64,000 nt of DNA, taken from sequence record MT446392.1. One strand, 5' to 3'. A program made the translations under genes and the position numbers. The notes beneath the pieces are model-generated. The model was not told the origin of the DNA and did no database searches. It was given only the letters and a program-made list of their open reading frames with translations. The first letter of the stretch is position 1. Each line of letters starts with the position of its first letter. Positions 8,985 through 56,141 of the stretch are shown here, piece after piece. Source of the stretch: Escherichia virus TH15.

Positions 8985-9148
8985 TAGAGACCTGTAGCCT
9001 TGGTTGGGATATTGTTAGATTTGGTGCATTCTGTTTTTGTTTTGGGATTGCGGCCACTTTATGTGTTCAAGGTCTTTTTGGAAAGTAGTGTACAAACTCA
9101 TGGGAGCAGAGTATAATGCTCCTACGGATAATAATTGAGGAAATAATT

Positions 9149-10364
<1,216 letters not shown>

Positions 10365-11122: not shown

Positions 11123-11151
11123 GTTTACTTTCACCATGGATGGTGTATAAT
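11123..11151 (+). promoter_or_regulatory. putative early promoter (GTTTAC -35, 17 nt, TATAAT -10)
   Basis: GTTTAC 11123-11128 and TATAAT 11146-11151; T4 early promoter -35 is GTTTAC-like. Confidence 0.5.
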
Positions 11152-11180
11152 GAATTTCATCAACACATGAGGAAAACAAA

Positions 11181-11723
11181 ATGAGTAATTTCTTTGAAGA
11201 AGGTAAGTTTTACAAATTTGTATCTGAAAATGCCAAAAAACAGTTTGTCGCTGGTGGATGGGCAGCTAATTACCAAATTGCTAGATACATCGGTATGACT
11301 CCGTTTGAAGTTAAGATTGTCCCTGATAATATTAGCGGCGGAAGAAAGGTTTGTGAGATTCGTTTGATTGATGAAAATAATTTTGTGGATTTGGCAAAAA
11401 TATCTGATGCACAAAACAGACATCATGGAGCAATATTTGTTTCCAATGGTCCTTTGTCAGATGAATTTGAATATTTCATCCAGGTAGAAGTTGGTATTAA
11501 GCCAGAAGTTGAGCCTGTACCAGCGAAACTTGCATCAGTTTGGAAATTGCTTGTGGTTAAAAATGGCAAGATTGAGATTAACTCTCGTCATACGTCAAAA
11601 GAATACGCGGAAGACGAAGCAGAGCGGCTGTTAAACCGTGGTACTGCAGAAGATTGCTATATTATCAAGGGCGATATCACAAAAGCTTCTATCGTTAAAC
11701 AAGTAAAACAGGAGACAATCTGA
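11181..11723 (+). CDS. hypothetical protein, 180 aa
   Basis: ORF with strong RBS GAGGAAAACAAA-ATG. Confidence 0.6.
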   Translation: MSNFFEEGKFYKFVSENAKKQFVAGGWAANYQIARYIGMTPFEVKIVPDNISGGRKVCEIRLIDENNFVDLAKISDAQNRHHGAIFVSNGPLSDEFEYFIQVEVGIKPEVEPVPAKLASVWKLLVVKNGKIEINSRHTSKEYAEDEAERLLNRGTAEDCYIIKGDITKASIVKQVKQETI

Positions 11724-12288: not shown

Positions 12289-12870
12289 ATGAAACCAACT
12301 ACTGTTCTGCAAATCGCGTACCTTGTATCTCAAGAATCAAAATGCTGCTCCTGGAAAGTGGGAGCTGTTATTGAAAAGAATGGACGCATTATTTCTACAG
12401 GGTATAATGGTTCCCCTGCGGGTGGGGTCAACTGTTGCGAGCATGCGGAAGAGCAAGGTTGGTTACTGAATAAACCTAAACCTGTTCTCGTCCCCGGCCA
12501 CAAGCCAGAATGTGTGAGATTCAGTAAGGTTGACCGTTTTGTATTGGCGAAAGCCCATCGCGAAGAACATTCTGCATGGTCAAAGAACAATGAAATCCAC
12601 GCAGAACTTAATGCAATTTTGTTTGCGGCAAGGATGGGGTCGTCAATTGAGGGAGCGACTATGTACGTGACGCTTTCTCCTTGTCCTGATTGCGCAAAGG
12701 CAATTTCGCAATCAGGAATCAAGAAATTGGTTTACTGTGAAACGTATGACAAGAATATTCCTGGTTGGGATGATATCCTGAAGAATGCAGGAATTGAGGT
12801 GTTCAATGTGCCTAAGCGTAGTCTAGACAAATTGAACTGGGAAAACATTAACGAATTTTGTGGTGAATAA
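12289..12870 (+). CDS. cd: dCMP deaminase
   Basis: 193-aa ORF; cytidine/dCMP deaminase zinc motifs (HAE...SPCPDC); T4 Cd is 193 aa. Confidence 0.9.
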   Translation: MKPTTVLQIAYLVSQESKCCSWKVGAVIEKNGRIISTGYNGSPAGGVNCCEHAEEQGWLLNKPKPVLVPGHKPECVRFSKVDRFVLAKAHREEHSAWSKNNEIHAELNAILFAARMGSSIEGATMYVTLSPCPDCAKAISQSGIKKLVYCETYDKNIPGWDDILKNAGIEVFNVPKRSLDKLNWENINEFCGE

Positions 12871-14760: not shown

Positions 14761-14788
14761 AGGGACTCTTCGGAGTCCCTTTTTTTTA
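14761..14788 (+). terminator. rho-independent terminator (GGGACUCUUCGGAGUCCC + U8)
   Basis: 18-nt perfect hairpin with UUCG loop followed by eight T. Confidence 0.8.
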
Positions 14789-14872
14789 TTTTCATAAAAG
14801 AGTGTACAACAGGATTTGCCCAGTGCATAATGATTCCATACTGAGTTACACAATAAAACACTGGAGAATAAA

Positions 14873-15241
14873 ATGAAAATCAATCTTAACTCATACATCA
14901 AAGGCAAAGACCACGACGGTTACAAAGCCATTGAAACTAAAGAGATGCAATGGCACTTGTATAAAGAACAGTTTGAATTTGTTGGTTGCATGACTCCTGA
15001 AGGTCCTTCTGATGACTTCTCTTGGAAAATTATGGTAACAAACTTTTTTACTGGTGATACCTACGAACTGAAAACTTTGATTTTGGGTAAGATTCGTTGT
15101 AAGACCTATGAAGATGAAGAAACTGGTTATTCTGAAGATGTTACATGGTATCAAAATGGTCGCACTACTGCTGATGATTTGATTGAAAAAATGAAAGCTA
15201 ATGGTGAATTAAATTTAGATAATTGGATTAAAGTCGCATAA
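14873..15241 (+). CDS. hypothetical protein, 122 aa
   Basis: ORF with RBS cassette CTGGAGAATAAA-ATG. Confidence 0.55.
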   Translation: MKINLNSYIKGKDHDGYKAIETKEMQWHLYKEQFEFVGCMTPEGPSDDFSWKIMVTNFFTGDTYELKTLILGKIRCKTYEDEETGYSEDVTWYQNGRTTADDLIEKMKANGELNLDNWIKVA

Positions 15242-15245
15242 AACA

Positions 15246-15287
15246 GTTTACTTTGGTACAGGTTATGATATTATAGACCTGTACCAA
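15246..15287 (+). promoter_or_regulatory. putative early promoter overlapped by an 11-bp perfect inverted repeat
   Basis: GTTTAC 15246-15251, TATTAT about 17 nt downstream; IR TTGGTACAGGT (15254-15264) / ACCTGTACCAA (15277-15287). Confidence 0.45.
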
Positions 15288-15312
15288 CAAATGAAAACAA
15301 CTGGAGAATAAA

Positions 15313-15678
15313 ATGAACTACATCAACTTTGAACGCAAATATGTTTCCAACTGCATCCCAGGTTCTTCTGAAGTTATTTGCTTGTGGAAACATCAAAACG
15401 GTTCAGTGTGTGAAATTGAACAATATATGACTCCTAACTACGTTTATATGCGATTTGAAAATGGTATCACTCTTTCAATTACTAAGGAAGGTTCCAACTT
15501 TAAAATCGCATTAGATGATGATTTCCGTGAACGTGATTTAGGGACTCATCCTTGCTGGAATGGTGTTAATCGCAAGCTCCTGGTTAAAACTTGGATTCGT
15601 CACATCCTGAGCAGCAAAGTAAAACCTGAACACCTGGAAGCAATCTTTGATGTAGTTCTTAATGAATTTGATATCTAA
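15313..15678 (+). CDS. hypothetical protein, 121 aa
   Basis: ORF with the same RBS cassette as the 14873 ORF. Confidence 0.55.
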   Translation: MNYINFERKYVSNCIPGSSEVICLWKHQNGSVCEIEQYMTPNYVYMRFENGITLSITKEGSNFKIALDDDFRERDLGTHPCWNGVNRKLLVKTWIRHILSSKVKPEHLEAIFDVVLNEFDI

Positions 15679-15715
15679 TCTTAAATGGGGCGAAAGCCCC
15701 CTTGAGGAAAATACT

Positions 15716-54116: not shown

Positions 54117-56141
54117 TTATGGTCCAACAGTCACGAATGTAGACAAAAGAACCCATGCATTATCAACAAGCACGTAAGGGAGACCATCAGCCGCAGGAGC
54201 GACAGGAGGCCTTTTGGTGAGCTCTGTTTCCAAGGCTGATACTTTACCTTCCAAAGTAGTTATCTTCGTCTCGGCTGCATCCAGGCGACCAGGGAGCGGA
54301 GTTACTGTACCTTCAAGAGTTGTCACACGATCAGTTAACGGTGTAATTTTTGCAGTATCGAGTTTAATTGCAGTGATTTCCCCTTCCGCCGAAGTCATTC
54401 GACCGGTCAAGGTTACCAAACCGCCTTTGTTTGTTTCGATATTTGCTTTAATGGTAACCAGCTCACCTTCAACATTGCTAACGTCTAAAGCTAAAGCAGT
54501 GACATCATCATCGGTCGTAGATGTTTTAGTTTCCAATGCGGTTATTTTACCATCAACAGTCGTATCCTTCGTTTCTAATGCAGTAATTCGACCATCTTGT
54601 TCCGTATCTTTATTTTGCAGAGCGAGAACATCTGCCTTAATATTCGTAACGGAAGTGTTCAATGCACCATAACGAGTATCTAACGAACTGATTGCCGTAT
54701 CATTATCATCGACACGACCAGTTAATGTTGTTACGCGTCCATCAGTTGTTACCAATGAAGCTTTAACTGCATCAACTTCGGTTGTGGAATCGATAATTTC
54801 AGACCAGGCACCTTGCTTGCGACCGTATAACTTGTTGTCCAATGGCGCATCGTTCAACTTGGATGCCATCAACATATCCAAGTTAATTACGACTGGAAGA
54901 ACACCACGTTCAGCCACAGTAGCACCGTTAGGGTTAGTCCCGTTCATCTGGCTAGTTAAAGTCAAAATAGAACCTTTCATACCAGTGCTATTTGTACCAA
55001 TTTCAGCCTGCACATCCTGAAGACCTGATGCAGTTTCATTAGCCAGCGTAGTGGTTGCATTCAACTTATACGTGATGGTGTTTGGCTCCGGAGATTGCTC
55101 TGTACCGATTCTCTGAGAAAGCCATGCAGTGGTCCCGCGTAAACCGGAGCTTGAATCCTGACCAACAACAGCCTGCAATCCATTAACATCCGAGCGCAAA
55201 GCACTGATTCGACCATTAATTGTTAATGGTTCCAGAGCGGTGCCGATATCAGCTTCGACCTTAGTAAGTCTTGGTTTGATATTCGCAATATCTGTTTCAT
55301 TGACCGAAACACGCCCACCAAGATTTTCAACGCGAGTTGTAATTGCAAGCCCGGTACCAAAACCGATAGCTTCTTGAATATTGGTAATATCTTCGTCAAT
55401 TTCGACTACTTTGTCATCAAGAGTATTCAGTCGAACAAATACAGCCGGTTTACCTACTGCTAAAGTCGACTCACCCAATTCTTCGCGAATTTTAATTACT
55501 TTTACGTTAAGAGAACCAACATCAGAATCATGGTAATTATCCTCAAGAGTCTTAATACGAACTCCATGGGCAACAATAGCCGAACTGTTATCGAGGATAC
55601 GACGTTTCATGCCTTTTGACGGATTACCAATAACCTGTAGACCATTTATATCCTGGTCAACATACTGACCCAATTCATTTTTAATCCATACAAGGTCATT
55701 ACGAACTGTGCGATAATACGAATCGGTTAACGGGTCATAAACACCAACATCTTCTTTTAACTTTGTAAGACCTTCGGATGTTTCGCTTGACAGCAATTCG
55801 GTATTAAATTGACGTTCATCAAGGTCAAGAATATCCGTACGGTTTTTTTCAATTTGCTTAACAACTTCCGTGTTAGTTGTTATATCCAAAGCTTCCTGGA
55901 TATTATTGACGTTATCAATAATTTCATTGATTTTTTCTTTAGATGTATTTGAGTTGTCGTCGAGTGTATCTACGTTTATTTGAACGCCAACCGCGGCGGC
56001 GTTCAAATTACCATCATGACCATATTTGGTACTGGCCGCAGTCATACAATCGCCGTTTTGTATCCAACGAATTCTCTGTTGACCTTCGTCTGGAATACCG
56101 ATGCTATACGGCAGTTCTTTGAGACTGAGTTTATTAATCAT
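54117..56141 (-). CDS. wac: fibritin (whisker / neck fibre), extended coiled coil
   Basis: 674-aa ORF; heptad-repeat-rich; C-terminal foldon-like ...PYVLVDNAWVLLSTFV; T4 fibritin is 487 aa. Confidence 0.85.
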   Translation of the reverse strand: MINKLSLKELPYSIGIPDEGQQRIRWIQNGDCMTAASTKYGHDGNLNAAAVGVQINVDTLDDNSNTSKEKINEIIDNVNNIQEALDITTNTEVVKQIEKNRTDILDLDERQFNTELLSSETSEGLTKLKEDVGVYDPLTDSYYRTVRNDLVWIKNELGQYVDQDINGLQVIGNPSKGMKRRILDNSSAIVAHGVRIKTLEDNYHDSDVGSLNVKVIKIREELGESTLAVGKPAVFVRLNTLDDKVVEIDEDITNIQEAIGFGTGLAITTRVENLGGRVSVNETDIANIKPRLTKVEADIGTALEPLTINGRISALRSDVNGLQAVVGQDSSSGLRGTTAWLSQRIGTEQSPEPNTITYKLNATTTLANETASGLQDVQAEIGTNSTGMKGSILTLTSQMNGTNPNGATVAERGVLPVVINLDMLMASKLNDAPLDNKLYGRKQGAWSEIIDSTTEVDAVKASLVTTDGRVTTLTGRVDDNDTAISSLDTRYGALNTSVTNIKADVLALQNKDTEQDGRITALETKDTTVDGKITALETKTSTTDDDVTALALDVSNVEGELVTIKANIETNKGGLVTLTGRMTSAEGEITAIKLDTAKITPLTDRVTTLEGTVTPLPGRLDAAETKITTLEGKVSALETELTKRPPVAPAADGLPYVLVDNAWVLLSTFVTVGP

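What the first reader, a model, noticed from the sequence alone, without database searches (positions are those of the whole stretch)
15254..15287. 11-bp perfect inverted repeat overlapping a predicted early promoter -10
TTGGTACAGGT and ACCTGTACCAA flank a 12-nt AT-rich spacer (tatgatattata) that contains the predicted -10 of a GTTTAC-type promoter. This could be a DNA operator palindrome or an RNA hairpin at the very 5' end of the transcript. Either would regulate the downstream 121-aa ORF.
Basis: seen in the sequence. Interest (0 to 1): 0.35.

Follow-up and report, generated by a model that had tools for sequence, protein, structure and literature searches.

The report
Early promoter buried in RNA hairpin
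The palindrome is real and conserved: it is the stem of an RNA hairpin wrapped around the early promoter of T4-type phage gene 30.7. The hairpin can form only in RNA that reads in from the upstream gene, and this promoter-plus-stem-loop layout is already described for T4-like phages.

Summary
The inverted repeat exists: arms 15253-15263 and 15277-15287, 11 bp perfect, with a 13-nt loop. The loop holds TGn and the -10 (TATTAT) of a GTTTAC early promoter, placed between homologs of T4 genes 30.8 and 30.7.

The 5' arm lies upstream of the -10, so RNA started at this promoter cannot contain the hairpin. Only read-through RNA from the 30.8 promoter can fold it (about -17 to -19 kcal/mol).

Orthologous 30.7 promoters in other genera keep a stem at the same place with different arm sequences. 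There are compensatory changes, and the single substitutions seen in intact stems give sense-strand G.U pairs. In Karamvirus-type phages the same spacer arm instead pairs with the Shine-Dalgarno sequence. Two of the three hairpin-less lineages have an intrinsic terminator just upstream.

Across 37 predicted T4 early promoters, each spacer is specifically complementary to its own leader (0 of 20,000 permutations).

Verdict: an RNA-level, read-through-specific hairpin of the PeSL type. It is not an operator and not a 5'-end hairpin of its own transcript. It is a new member of a known kind, of modest interest. What the hairpin does to the RNA is inferred, not shown.

The parts
14761..14788 (+). 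Intrinsic terminator (AGGGACTC-TTCG-GAGTCCCT followed by a T-run) upstream of the 30.8 cassette. It marks the upstream boundary of the transcription unit that supplies read-through RNA.
   Evidence: Terminator scan; sequence.
14802..14831 (+). Upstream early promoter of the 30.8 homolog (GTGTAC, 18 nt, CATAAT). It is the presumed source of the read-through transcripts that contain the hairpin.
   Evidence: Aligned with the P30.8 cassettes of relatives. This is a consensus match only, with no experimental data.
14873..15241 (+). ORF of 122 aa, a diverged homolog of T4 gp30.8. Its stop codon ends 4 nt before the -35 and 11 nt before the stem.
   Evidence: Pfam PF06019, E = 3.7e-43; 40% amino-acid identity to T4 gp30.8.
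15246..15251 (+). -35 hexamer GTTTAC of the early promoter P30.7.
   Evidence: DNA homology to T4 begins exactly here. The equivalent site is annotated as a predicted early promoter in phages Lutter and fPS-90.
15253..15263 (+). 5' arm of the hairpin (TTGGTACAGGT). It lies inside the -35/-10 spacer and is therefore absent from RNA started at P30.7.
   Evidence: Ten of its 11 columns are invariant among 11 distinct T-even sequences.
15264..15276 (+). 13-nt loop containing TGn (15266-15268) and the -10 TATTAT (15269-15274).
15277..15287 (+). 3' arm of the hairpin (ACCTGTACCAA). It covers the expected transcription start at about 15281-15283.
   Evidence: The start position is inferred from the usual distance of about 7 nt from the -10 and is not measured.
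15303..15306 (+). Shine-Dalgarno GGAG of 30.7, 15 nt downstream of the stem and unpaired in the predicted folds. The same motif in T4 30.7 mRNA is a RegB cleavage site.
   Evidence: PMC9409239, read, names 30.7 mRNA as a known RegB target.
15313..15678 (+). ORF of 121 aa, a homolog of T4 gp30.7 of unknown function. This is the gene served by the promoter.
   Evidence: Pfam PF06919, E = 6e-51; 89% amino-acid identity to T4 gp30.7.

Best explanation
The palindrome is the stem of a composite early-promoter/stem-loop cassette (PeSL type) in front of gene 30.7 of a T-even phage. The 5' arm sits in the -35/-10 spacer, the loop carries TGn and the -10, and the 3' arm covers the transcription start.

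It follows directly from the sequence that RNA started at this promoter lacks the 5' arm. Its leader is unstructured and its GGAG Shine-Dalgarno sequence is exposed. RNA that reads through from the 30.8 promoter folds into a hairpin of about -17 to -19 kcal/mol, starting 11 nt after the 30.8 stop codon.

Comparison shows that selection acts on base pairing in the sense-strand RNA, not on the DNA sequence.

The function is inferred. The hairpin most likely insulates 30.7 from upstream transcription. It would lower the contribution of read-through RNA to 30.7 expression, by attenuation or pausing, or by hindering ribosome loading on long RNA. Gene 30.7 would then be expressed essentially from its own early promoter. 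In Karamvirus- and Gelderlandvirus-type relatives the same spacer arm reaches this result directly by pairing with the Shine-Dalgarno sequence.
For: (1) Geometry. The arms, -35, -10 and SD are located. The read-through RNA folds at -18.8 kcal/mol with z = -3.56. The predicted own transcript folds at -0.1 kcal/mol.

(2) Conservation. The promoter-hairpin-30.7 block matches 719 phage records, and homology to T4 starts at the -35. The core GGTACAGG/CCTGTACC is invariant among the T-even sequences sampled except for one G.U, whereas the upstream gene has diverged to 40% amino-acid identity.

(3) Covariation. Orthologous 30.7 promoters keep a stem with the 5' arm starting 2-4 nt after the -35 but with different sequences:
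- Serratia phage X20: GGTGAGAGTC/GACTCTCACC.
- PWKp18: GGTGTAGGAGTA/TACTCTTACACC.
- L058: GCTGATTGAGTGT/ACACTCAATCAGC.
- L054: TTGGGTGGT.../...ACCACCCAA.
MFE z-scores run from -3.8 to -6.6 in 8 lineages. RNAalifold on three alignable lineages gives 13 pairs, 5 of them with compensatory changes. In that alignment 96% of cells are paired, against 28-45% when the partners are slid, and 0 of 500 shuffles reach the covariation score.

(4) RNA level and sense strand. Four independent single transitions in intact stems all give G.U and none gives A.C: X20 to L042, L058 to L052, Lutter to L016, and L071 to L054.

(5) Class B. In Karamvirus- and Gelderlandvirus-type phages, CTCCGTTGTAT in the spacer pairs with ATACAACGGAG, which includes the SD. 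L056 carries three compensatory pairs (CTCCGAGGTTT/AAACCTCGGAG).

(6) Link to read-through. Two of the three 30.7 promoters that lack the stem sit 30-45 nt behind an intrinsic terminator: KP179-type and SQ17. In T4, promoters with a terminator within 110 nt upstream have mean spacer-leader energy -7.1 kcal/mol (1 of 8 strong). Those without have -12.2 (13 of 30 strong).

(7) Generality. In T4, spacers pair with their own leader at -11.2 kcal/mol against -6.9 for other promoters' leaders. None of 20,000 permutations reaches this, and controls show no signal. In the window the figures are -10.8 against -6.9, P = 0.005.

(8) Literature. PeSLs are described with stem-loops overlapping the -10 and are proposed to act as terminators or attenuators of upstream transcription. 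One such stem-loop reduced lacZ expression as much as rrnB T1 (PMC2839356).
Against: - No experimental data exist for this phage. The promoter, the start site and the existence of read-through RNA are all predictions.
- The stem is followed by CAACAAAUG, not a U-tract, so it is not a canonical intrinsic terminator.
- In this phage the SD lies 15 nt past the stem and is unpaired in the predicted folds. Direct occlusion of the ribosome binding site is therefore not predicted here.
- The distance from stem to SD varies from 5 to 21 nt among lineages.
- One lineage (L051) has a degraded stem although no terminator was noticed in the upstream sequence inspected.
- The covariation rests on few independent lineages and on an alignment trimmed to the hairpin. 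A promoter-anchored alignment gave weak column statistics because the stems are out of register.
- The G.U versus A.C count (4 to 0) is small, about p = 0.06.
- The terminator association is only a trend: p = 0.07 in T4, and about 0.07 by Fisher's test on 10 lineages.
Confidence: 0.6

Rival explanations
1. The hairpin forms in read-through RNA, but its job is to protect the upstream message. RegB cuts the GGAG of the 30.7 Shine-Dalgarno sequence (or other endonucleolytic cuts occur), and the stem then blocks 3'-to-5' exonucleases and stabilises the 30.8 mRNA. It would not act by lowering 30.7 expression.
For: A stable stem without a U-tract sits 11 nt after the 30.8 stop codon. GGAG lies 15 nt downstream, and T4 30.7 mRNA is named as a known RegB target (PMC9409239). 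The variable distance from stem to SD fits a barrier better than a translational operator.
Against: Several lineages that keep the stem have no GGAG in the SD: PWKp18 has GAGG and L052 has GGGA. The class B variants and many T4 early promoters pair the spacer with the SD itself. That pattern points to control of the downstream gene.
Confidence: 0.2
2. The inverted repeat works at the DNA level. It could be a recombination or cruciform element, or a by-product of duplicated promoter cassettes that shuffle genes (the PeSL recombination role), with no role for the RNA structure.
For: The P30.8 and P30.7 cassettes are paralogous. In phage SQ17, gene 30.8 has been deleted by a crossover inside the shared GACYTGTACCA segment. 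The single-stranded DNA hairpin is also stable (-10.4 kcal/mol, z = -3.5). PeSL papers propose recombination at these motifs (PMC2839356, PMC4122927).
Against: Recombination needs direct repeats between cassettes, not an inverted repeat within one. Pairing is kept by compensatory changes and by sense-strand G.U pairs. Class B stems have loops of about 30 nt, which are unfavourable for cruciforms. The paralogous P30.8 cassettes, which sit behind a terminator, have lost the complementarity although they keep the 3' arm sequence.
Confidence: 0.1
3. The palindrome is a DNA operator. A dimeric phage or host protein binds it and represses the early promoter, for example as part of early shut-off.
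For: It is a perfect 11-bp palindrome centred on the -10. The mechanism of T4 early-promoter shut-off is stated to be unknown (PMC2988021).
Against: Neither arm recurs in the 64-kb window with at most one mismatch as a paired site, and the covariance model finds a single copy. Arm sequences differ completely between genera while pairing persists. Other early promoters carry their own, different complementary pairs. Variants create G.T mismatches in the duplex, which an operator would not favour.
Confidence: 0.04
4. The repeat is a chance palindrome that has hitch-hiked with a conserved promoter.
For: About 0.57 perfect repeats of this size are expected per 64 kb by chance. Most close relatives are too similar to be informative.
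Against: Independent stems of 10-14 pairs occur at the same place in at least 6 sequence-distinct lineages. Compensatory changes are present. There is a genome-wide signal in T4 with clean controls.
Confidence: 0.03

Closest known systems
PeSL (promoter-early stem-loop) cassettes of T4-type phages (Arbiol et al. 2010, PMC2839356; Comeau et al. 2014, PMC4122927)
   Same: The layout matches the published description: upstream stop codon, sigma-70-type early promoter, a stem-loop overlapping the -10 box, then a Shine-Dalgarno sequence and start codon. The stem tolerates G-T pairs. PeSLs are proposed to act on transcription coming from upstream. They are associated with gene gain and loss, and here phage SQ17 has lost 30.8 by a crossover between the two tandem cassettes.
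   Different: RB49/phi1 PeSLs are many near-identical copies with polyG/polyC stems. Here the stem sequence is unique in the window and each promoter has its own arm sequences. For the T4/PST pair the 2014 paper places the stem-loops just upstream of the promoter, not around the -10.
T4 regulatory region upstream of the gene 30 cluster (Truncaite et al. 2006, Virology 344:378; not held in the library, content recalled from memory of the abstract)
   Same: This is the orthologous locus: a terminator, two early promoters (30.8 and 30.7), RegB sites in the two GGAG Shine-Dalgarno sequences, and a conserved 'sequence for stem-loop structure' in 16 T4-type phages. The held paper PMC9409239 confirms that the 2006 study established 30.7 mRNA as a RegB target.
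   Different: I could not read the paper. Whether its stem-loop is this one, and what role it was given, is unverified.
Promoter-inside-hairpin translational control of T4 genes e, soc, 49 and I-TevI (reviewed in PMC3014915)
   Same: The 5' strand of the helix lies upstream of a gene-proximal promoter. Long transcripts fold and short ones do not. The Karamvirus-type 30.7 promoters and T4 promoters such as those of regB, denV and motB.2 sequester the SD in exactly this way.
   Different: The known cases use late promoters (TATAAATA) and occlude the SD or AUG. Here the promoter is an early sigma-70 promoter, and in this phage the SD is 15 nt outside the helix.
Intrinsic (Rho-independent) terminators and intercistronic stabiliser hairpins
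   Same: It is a stable stem-loop directly after a stop codon in a polycistronic early region.
   Different: There is no U-tract, the loop is 13 nt and AU-rich, and the terminator scan does not call it. True terminators of this region have a UUCG loop and a T-run (14761-14788).

Membership tests
PeSL (promoter-early stem-loop) cassette | Sigma-70-type early promoter (-35, about 17 nt, -10) in an intergenic region. | tested here: met
   GTTTAC, 17 nt, TGn and TATTAT at 15246-15274. The orthologous site is annotated as a predicted early promoter in two GenBank records. This rests on sequence only.
PeSL (promoter-early stem-loop) cassette | Stable stem-loop within or overlapping the promoter. The published subclasses include 'overlapping the -10 box'. 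| tested here: met
   An 11-bp perfect stem brackets the -10. RNA fold -18.8 kcal/mol, z = -3.56. Subclass definition read.
PeSL (promoter-early stem-loop) cassette | Upstream stop codon at the 5' end, and a Shine-Dalgarno sequence plus start codon at the 3' end of the cassette. | tested here: met
   TAA at 15239-15241, GGAG at 15303-15306, ATG at 15313.
PeSL (promoter-early stem-loop) cassette | Repeated motif present in many similar copies in the genome, mostly in hyperplastic regions. | tested here: inconclusive
   The covariance model finds one copy in the 64-kb window. Only the 18-nt SD cassette ACTGGAGAATAAAATGAA is shared with the 30.8 leader. However, 3 of the 6 predicted early promoters in the window, and about 14-17 of 37 in T4, show strong promoter-specific spacer-leader stems. 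In Dhakavirus the two cassettes share about 47 identical bases.
PeSL (promoter-early stem-loop) cassette | Association with insertions, deletions or replacements of the flanking ORFs. | tested here: met
   SQ17 lacks 30.8, and its promoter is a P30.8/P30.7 hybrid with the crossover in GACYTGTACCA. Merci and phi1_146055 carry parts of the cassette in front of other genes.
PeSL (promoter-early stem-loop) cassette | The stem-loop attenuates or terminates transcription coming from upstream. | not testable with these tools
   There is only indirect support. Stems tend to be absent where an intrinsic terminator precedes the promoter.
Promoter-inside-hairpin translational control (T4 e, soc, 49, I-TevI) | The helix sequesters the Shine-Dalgarno sequence and/or the start codon in the long transcript. 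| tested here: not met
   In the window the SD (15303-15306) and AUG are unpaired in the MFE and centroid folds. The feature is met in Karamvirus- and Gelderlandvirus-type orthologs.
Promoter-inside-hairpin translational control (T4 e, soc, 49, I-TevI) | The gene-proximal promoter lies so that its transcript lacks the 5' strand of the helix. | tested here: met
   The 5' arm (15253-15263) is upstream of the -10 (15269-15274), so this follows from the sequence. The predicted own transcript is unstructured.
Promoter-inside-hairpin translational control (T4 e, soc, 49, I-TevI) | The embedded promoter is a T4 late promoter (TATAAATA). | tested here: not met
   The promoter has a -35 GTTTAC and an extended -10, which is the early type.
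Intrinsic terminator | G+C-rich stem with a short loop, followed by a U-tract. | tested here: not met
   The terminator scan does not list it. The loop is 13 nt and the tail is CAACAAAUG.
Repressor operator palindrome | Half-site sequence conserved among relatives and shared by the co-regulated promoters. | tested here: not met
   Arm sequences differ between genera while pairing is kept. There is no second site in the window. Other early promoters have unrelated arms.
Rfam RNA families | A match to a curated covariance model. | tested here: not met
   No hit lies on 15240-15310. Only sub-threshold hits fall on the upstream terminator.

The most novel reading that the evidence does not exclude
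The 30.7 hairpin may be one instance of a general, so far unformulated rule of T-even early gene expression. Under this rule the -35/-10 spacer of an early promoter doubles as the 5' strand of an RNA helix. The 3' strand of that helix is the promoter's own initial transcribed region (class A) or its own Shine-Dalgarno sequence (class B).

Each small early gene would then be freely translated only from RNA started at its own promoter, while read-through RNA would be structurally masked. This would extend the e/soc/49/I-TevI logic from a few late promoters to a large share of early promoters, about 14-17 of 37 in T4.

The statistical signal is strong. The functional consequence is untested, and so is the claim that this has not been stated before. 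Key older T4 papers are not in the held library.
Probability: 0.3. Interest if true: 0.55.

Novelty: new member of a known kind. Interest (0 to 1): 0.33.

Why it matters
For this locus the work explains a conspicuous palindrome as a conserved RNA element. It also gives a concrete, testable prediction: 30.7 output should depend on where the transcript started.

More broadly, T4-type genomes pack dozens of tiny early genes head to tail, many with their own strong promoter. Promoter spacers that also encode the 5' strand of a read-through-specific hairpin would be a compact way to keep each cassette autonomous in expression. It would also keep the cassette functional when it is shuffled between genomes.

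This matters for annotating T4-like therapeutic phages and for designing synthetic phage cassettes. It also bears on reading early transcriptome data, where RNA level and protein output may diverge depending on transcript origin.

Tried and rejected
- **Second copies of the arms.** A search of the window with up to 2 mismatches found only unrelated single hits.
- **Covariance model from a promoter-anchored alignment (A2, R1).** It recovered the orthologs and showed a single copy in the window. Its alignment keeps the promoter register, so stems that differ by 1-4 nt in register fall out of column. The column statistics were poor: 70% of cells paired. I replaced it with per-lineage statistics and a hairpin-only alignment.
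- **Rfam.** No family matches the hairpin.
- **Literature.** Truncaite et al. 2006 and Miller et al. 2003 are not held. No T4 start-site data set was found. No held paper states the early-promoter version of promoter-in-hairpin control.
- **Intrinsic terminator reading.** Rejected because there is no U-tract.
- **RNase III site.** Considered and dropped. An 11-13 bp stem is shorter than typical substrates; this rests on my own knowledge and was not tested.
- **Long-range pairing of the SD with 15127-15142 inside the 30.8 ORF** (81% complementary). It does not appear in the MFE folds and the 30.8 sequence is not conserved in T4, so I did not pursue it.
- **Apparent homology break at the -35.** This looked like a recombination junction, but the upstream ORF is a diverged 30.8 homolog. 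The break simply reflects unequal divergence.

Full report
**1. The observation.**
The inverted repeat is real. The repeat finder gives arms 15253-15263 (TTGGTACAGGT) and 15277-15287 (ACCTGTACCAA), 11 nt and 100% complementary, separated by 13 nt.

The promoter reading also holds. GTTTAC lies at 15246-15251, followed by a 17-nt spacer, TG at 15266-15267 and TATTAT at 15269-15274.

Perfect inverted repeats of at least 11 bp with 3-30 nt loops number 3 in the window, against 0.57 expected from dinucleotide shuffles. The other two lie inside long ORFs. Taken alone the repeat is only moderately improbable. The comparative evidence makes the case.

**2. Context.**
The window comes from a T-even phage. 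The best match over 6 kb is Escherichia phage vB_EcoM_VR26 at 94%. A 96%-identical copy of the 30.7 protein in phage TH44 is classed as Gaprivervirus.

The downstream 121-aa ORF (15313-15678) is a homolog of T4 gp30.7 (PF06919). The upstream 122-aa ORF (14873-15241) is a diverged gp30.8 (PF06019, 40% identity to T4).

Upstream of 30.8 lie an intrinsic terminator (14761-14788) and another early promoter (14802-14831). This is the T4 layout: terminator, P30.8, 30.8, P30.7, 30.7.

In T4 the GGAG Shine-Dalgarno sequence of 30.7 is a known RegB cleavage site (PMC9409239, citing Truncaite et al. 2006, which I could not read).

**3. Anatomy, and what follows from it.**
The 5' arm lies wholly inside the -35/-10 spacer. 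The loop carries TGn and the -10. The 3' arm covers the expected start site, about 15281-15283; this position is inferred from the usual 7-nt distance.

Whatever the exact start, a transcript initiated here cannot contain the 5' arm. The predicted own transcript (15281-15345) is essentially unstructured (-0.1 kcal/mol; all 200 shuffles fold at least as well).

RNA reading through from the 30.8 promoter does contain both arms. It folds into the hairpin 11 nt after the 30.8 stop codon (-18.8 kcal/mol, z = -3.56). The Shine-Dalgarno GGAG (15303-15306) lies 15 nt past the stem and is unpaired. The stem is followed by CAACAAAUG, so it is not a canonical terminator.

**4. Conservation in close relatives.**
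The promoter-hairpin-leader block matches 719 phage records. Homology to T4-type phages begins exactly at the -35. Among 11 distinct T-even versions, 10 of 11 columns of the 5' arm are invariant. The core GGTACAGG/CCTGTACC is invariant apart from one C-to-U change that gives G.U. By contrast, 9 of the 12 columns upstream of the -35 vary.

**5. Covariation in distant relatives.**
I located gp30.7 homologs at 44-57% identity in other Tevenvirinae genera and read the sequence upstream of each. In each lineage the -35 GTTTAC and an extended -10 are kept. A stem is present whose 5' arm starts 2-4 nt after the -35, but the arm sequences differ:
- Serratia phage X20: GGTGAGAGTC/GACTCTCACC.
- PWKp18 (Marfavirus): GGTGTAGGAGTA/TACTCTTACACC.
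- L053 and L058: GCTGATTGAGTGT/ACACTCAATCAGC.
- L054 and L071-76: TTGGGTGGT.../...ACCACCCAA.

MFE z-scores run from -3.8 to -6.6 in eight lineages.

The three lineages whose hairpins can be aligned give 13 consensus pairs under RNAalifold. Five pairs carry compensatory double changes and none is broken in the core. In that alignment 96% of cells are paired, against 28-45% with slid partners, and 0 of 500 shuffles reach the covariation score.

Four independent single transitions in otherwise intact stems all produce G.U on the sense strand and never A.C. They are X20 to L042, L058 to L052, Lutter to L016, and L071 to L054. In addition, the window's U.G pair becomes U-A in L009. Selection therefore acts on pairing in the sense-strand RNA, not on a DNA recognition sequence.

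**6. A second structural class.**
In Karamvirus-, Gelderlandvirus- and related phages the spacer carries CTCCGTTGTAT at the same position. It pairs with ATACAACGGAG, that is, with the Shine-Dalgarno sequence itself, across a loop of about 30 nt (-21 to -24 kcal/mol, z about -6).

L056 has CTCCGAGGTTT/AAACCTCGGAG, which is three compensatory pairs. In these phages the read-through RNA has its ribosome binding site masked and the promoter-proximal RNA does not. This is the mechanism documented for T4 e, soc, 49 and I-TevI (PMC3014915), except that the embedded promoter is early rather than late.

**7. Exceptions are informative.**
Three 30.7 promoters lack a significant stem: KP179-type, SQ17 and L051.

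KP179 has an intrinsic terminator 30 nt upstream of the -35. SQ17 has the UUCG-loop terminator hairpin about 45 nt upstream.

SQ17 has lost gene 30.8. Its promoter is a hybrid of the P30.8 and P30.7 cassettes of its Mosigvirus relatives, with the crossover in the shared GACYTGTACCA segment.

In Mosigvirus and Dhakavirus the two cassettes are paralogous. The copy behind the terminator (P30.8) has lost complementarity to the shared 3' arm. The copy behind an ORF (P30.7) keeps it.

The stem is thus kept where upstream transcription can enter. With 10 lineages this gives about p = 0.07 by Fisher's test, which is suggestive only.

**8. Is it a general feature?**
In the window, a covariance model of the element finds a single copy. 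Of the promoter-like sites first scanned, only this one has a long stem (12 pairs against at most 8).

A broader question gives a different answer: is the spacer of an early promoter complementary to its own leader? In the window, 6 predicted early promoters give a mean duplex energy of -10.8 kcal/mol with their own leader, against -6.9 under permuted assignment (P = 0.005). P9088 (TGGGAGCA/TGCTCCTA around the -10) and P11123 are the further strong cases.

In T4 (NC_000866) a simple pattern finds 38 early promoters with a downstream SD and ATG. For 37 of them, spacer against own leader averages -11.2 kcal/mol, against -6.9 for other promoters' leaders. None of 20,000 permutations reaches this value (z = -10.2, or -6.2 after aggressive removal of paralogs). 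The 18 nt upstream of the -35 and the reversed spacers show no signal.

The strong T4 cases fall into the same two classes:
- Class A, with the 3' arm right after the -10: motB, dmd, mobD.2, ipII (14 bp), ipI and 30.7.
- Class B, with the 3' arm on the SD: motB.2, nrdC.8, regB, denV, alt.-3 and 30.8.

T4 promoters with an intrinsic terminator within 110 nt upstream average -7.1 kcal/mol (1 of 8 strong). Those without average -12.2 (13 of 30 strong). The one-sided Mann-Whitney p is 0.07.

**9. Mechanism.**
Shown by sequence and comparison:
- The hairpin is specific to read-through RNA.
- Pairing is under selection at the RNA level.
- Sister lineages use the same spacer position to mask the SD.

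Inferred: the hairpin insulates 30.7 from upstream transcription, so that the gene is expressed from its own early promoter. The promoter-proximal RNA has a naked, RegB-accessible leader. How the class A stem lowers output from long RNA is not established; attenuation or pausing, and interference with ribosome loading, are both possible.

The main alternative is a 3' barrier that stabilises 30.8 mRNA after cleavage downstream. The operator reading, the chance reading and a purely DNA-level recombination reading are each poorly supported (see the rival explanations).

**10. Comparison with what is known.**
The anatomy matches the published PeSL (promoter-early stem-loop) cassettes of T4-type phages. 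These consist of an upstream stop codon, an early promoter, a stem-loop commonly overlapping the -10 and drawn with G-T pairs, then an SD and start codon. They are proposed to be terminators or attenuators of upstream transcription and to mediate gene shuffling (PMC2839356; PMC4122927).

The differences are that this stem is not a multi-copy repeat, and that for T4/PST the 2014 paper places the stem-loops just upstream of the promoter.

The orthologous T4 region was studied by Truncaite et al. 2006. From my memory of the abstract, that study reports a conserved stem-loop sequence there. I could not verify that it is this one.

I therefore file the finding as a new member of a known kind. The broader regularity, with early-promoter spacers acting as anti-leader or anti-SD strands genome-wide, is the most novel reading left open. 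It needs experiments and a fuller literature check.

**11. Caveats.**
- All promoters and start sites are predictions.
- Energies are nearest-neighbour estimates.
- The covariation alignment was trimmed to the hairpin and covers few independent lineages.
- The G.U count and the terminator association are small-sample trends.
- The T4-wide test uses pattern-predicted promoters and RNAduplex energies rather than full folds.

Noticed in passing
L024, L026, L028, L041, L043-46, L050, L056, L057, L059 (30.7 upstream regions, about locus 633-700): In Karamvirus-, Gelderlandvirus- and related phages the spacer of the 30.7 early promoter (CTCCGTTGTAT) pairs with the Shine-Dalgarno region (ATACAACGGAG). 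L056 carries three compensatory pairs. This is an early-promoter version of the T4 e/soc/49/I-TevI promoter-inside-hairpin arrangement.
   Followed up: partly
L077, L078, L079 (T4 NC_000866 1-78000 and 119000-168903): Across 37 predicted T4 early promoters the -35/-10 spacer is specifically complementary to its own leader: -11.2 against -6.9 kcal/mol, with 0 of 20,000 permutations reaching this and clean controls. Strong cases include the promoters of motB, motB.2, dmd, nrdC.8, mobD.2, regB, denV, ipII, ipI, alt.-3, 30.8 and 30.7.
   Followed up: partly
window 9088-9124: A second early promoter (GTGTAC, 18 nt, TATAAT) has a stem bracketing its -10. The arms are TGGGAGCA (9101-9108) and TGCTCCTA (9117-9124), 8 pairs including one G.U. 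The region folds with z = -2.3. The promoter sits upstream of a predicted ATG at 9149.
   Followed up: partly
window 11123-11183: The spacer of the early promoter GTTTAC/TATAAT (TTTCACCATGGATGGTG) is complementary to its own leader around the GAGG Shine-Dalgarno sequence (-12.2 kcal/mol, p = 0.007 against shuffled spacers). It also contains an internal CACCA-TGGA-TGGTG hairpin.
   Followed up: partly
L006 601-676 compared with L004 188-262 and 634-709: Phage SQ17 lacks gene 30.8. Its 30.7 promoter is a hybrid of the P30.8 and P30.7 cassettes of related Mosigviruses, with the crossover inside the shared GACYTGTACCA segment. This is a natural example of deletion by recombination between tandem promoter cassettes.
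   Followed up: yes
L020 688-765 and 1131-1206: In a Dhakavirus-type contig the leaders of 30.8 and 30.7 share about 47 identical bases (TATAGACCTGTACCAAATAATACGAAAACAAACTGGAGAATAAAATGAA). They form a direct repeat flanking gene 30.8. The P30.8 spacer there (TCTCCGGT) pairs with the SD region instead.
   Followed up: partly
window 15687-15700: A GGGGC-GAAA-GCCCC hairpin with a GNRA tetraloop and no T-run lies between the 30.7 stop codon and the next ORF.
   Followed up: no
window 14860-14877 and 15300-15317: The same 18-nt translation-initiation cassette, ACTGGAGAATAAAATGAA, precedes both the 30.8 and the 30.7 homologs. Both therefore carry a GGAG (RegB-type) Shine-Dalgarno sequence.
   Followed up: no
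window 12684-12717 and 55978-56008: Two other perfect 11-bp inverted repeats occur: TCCTGATTGCG/CGCAATCAGGA with a 12-nt loop, and ATTTGAACGCC/GGCGTTCAAAT with a 9-nt loop. Both lie inside long ORFs (12289-12870 on the + strand; 54117-56141 on the - strand).
   Followed up: no
L007 about 600-653 and L008 563-635: Parts of the 30.7 promoter-leader cassette (TATAGACCTGTACCA... or ...TACTCTTACACCAACAAATG...GGAGAATAAAATG) stand in front of unrelated or different genes in Klebsiella phages Merci and phi1_146055. In these copies the 5' arm is missing or shortened.
   Followed up: no
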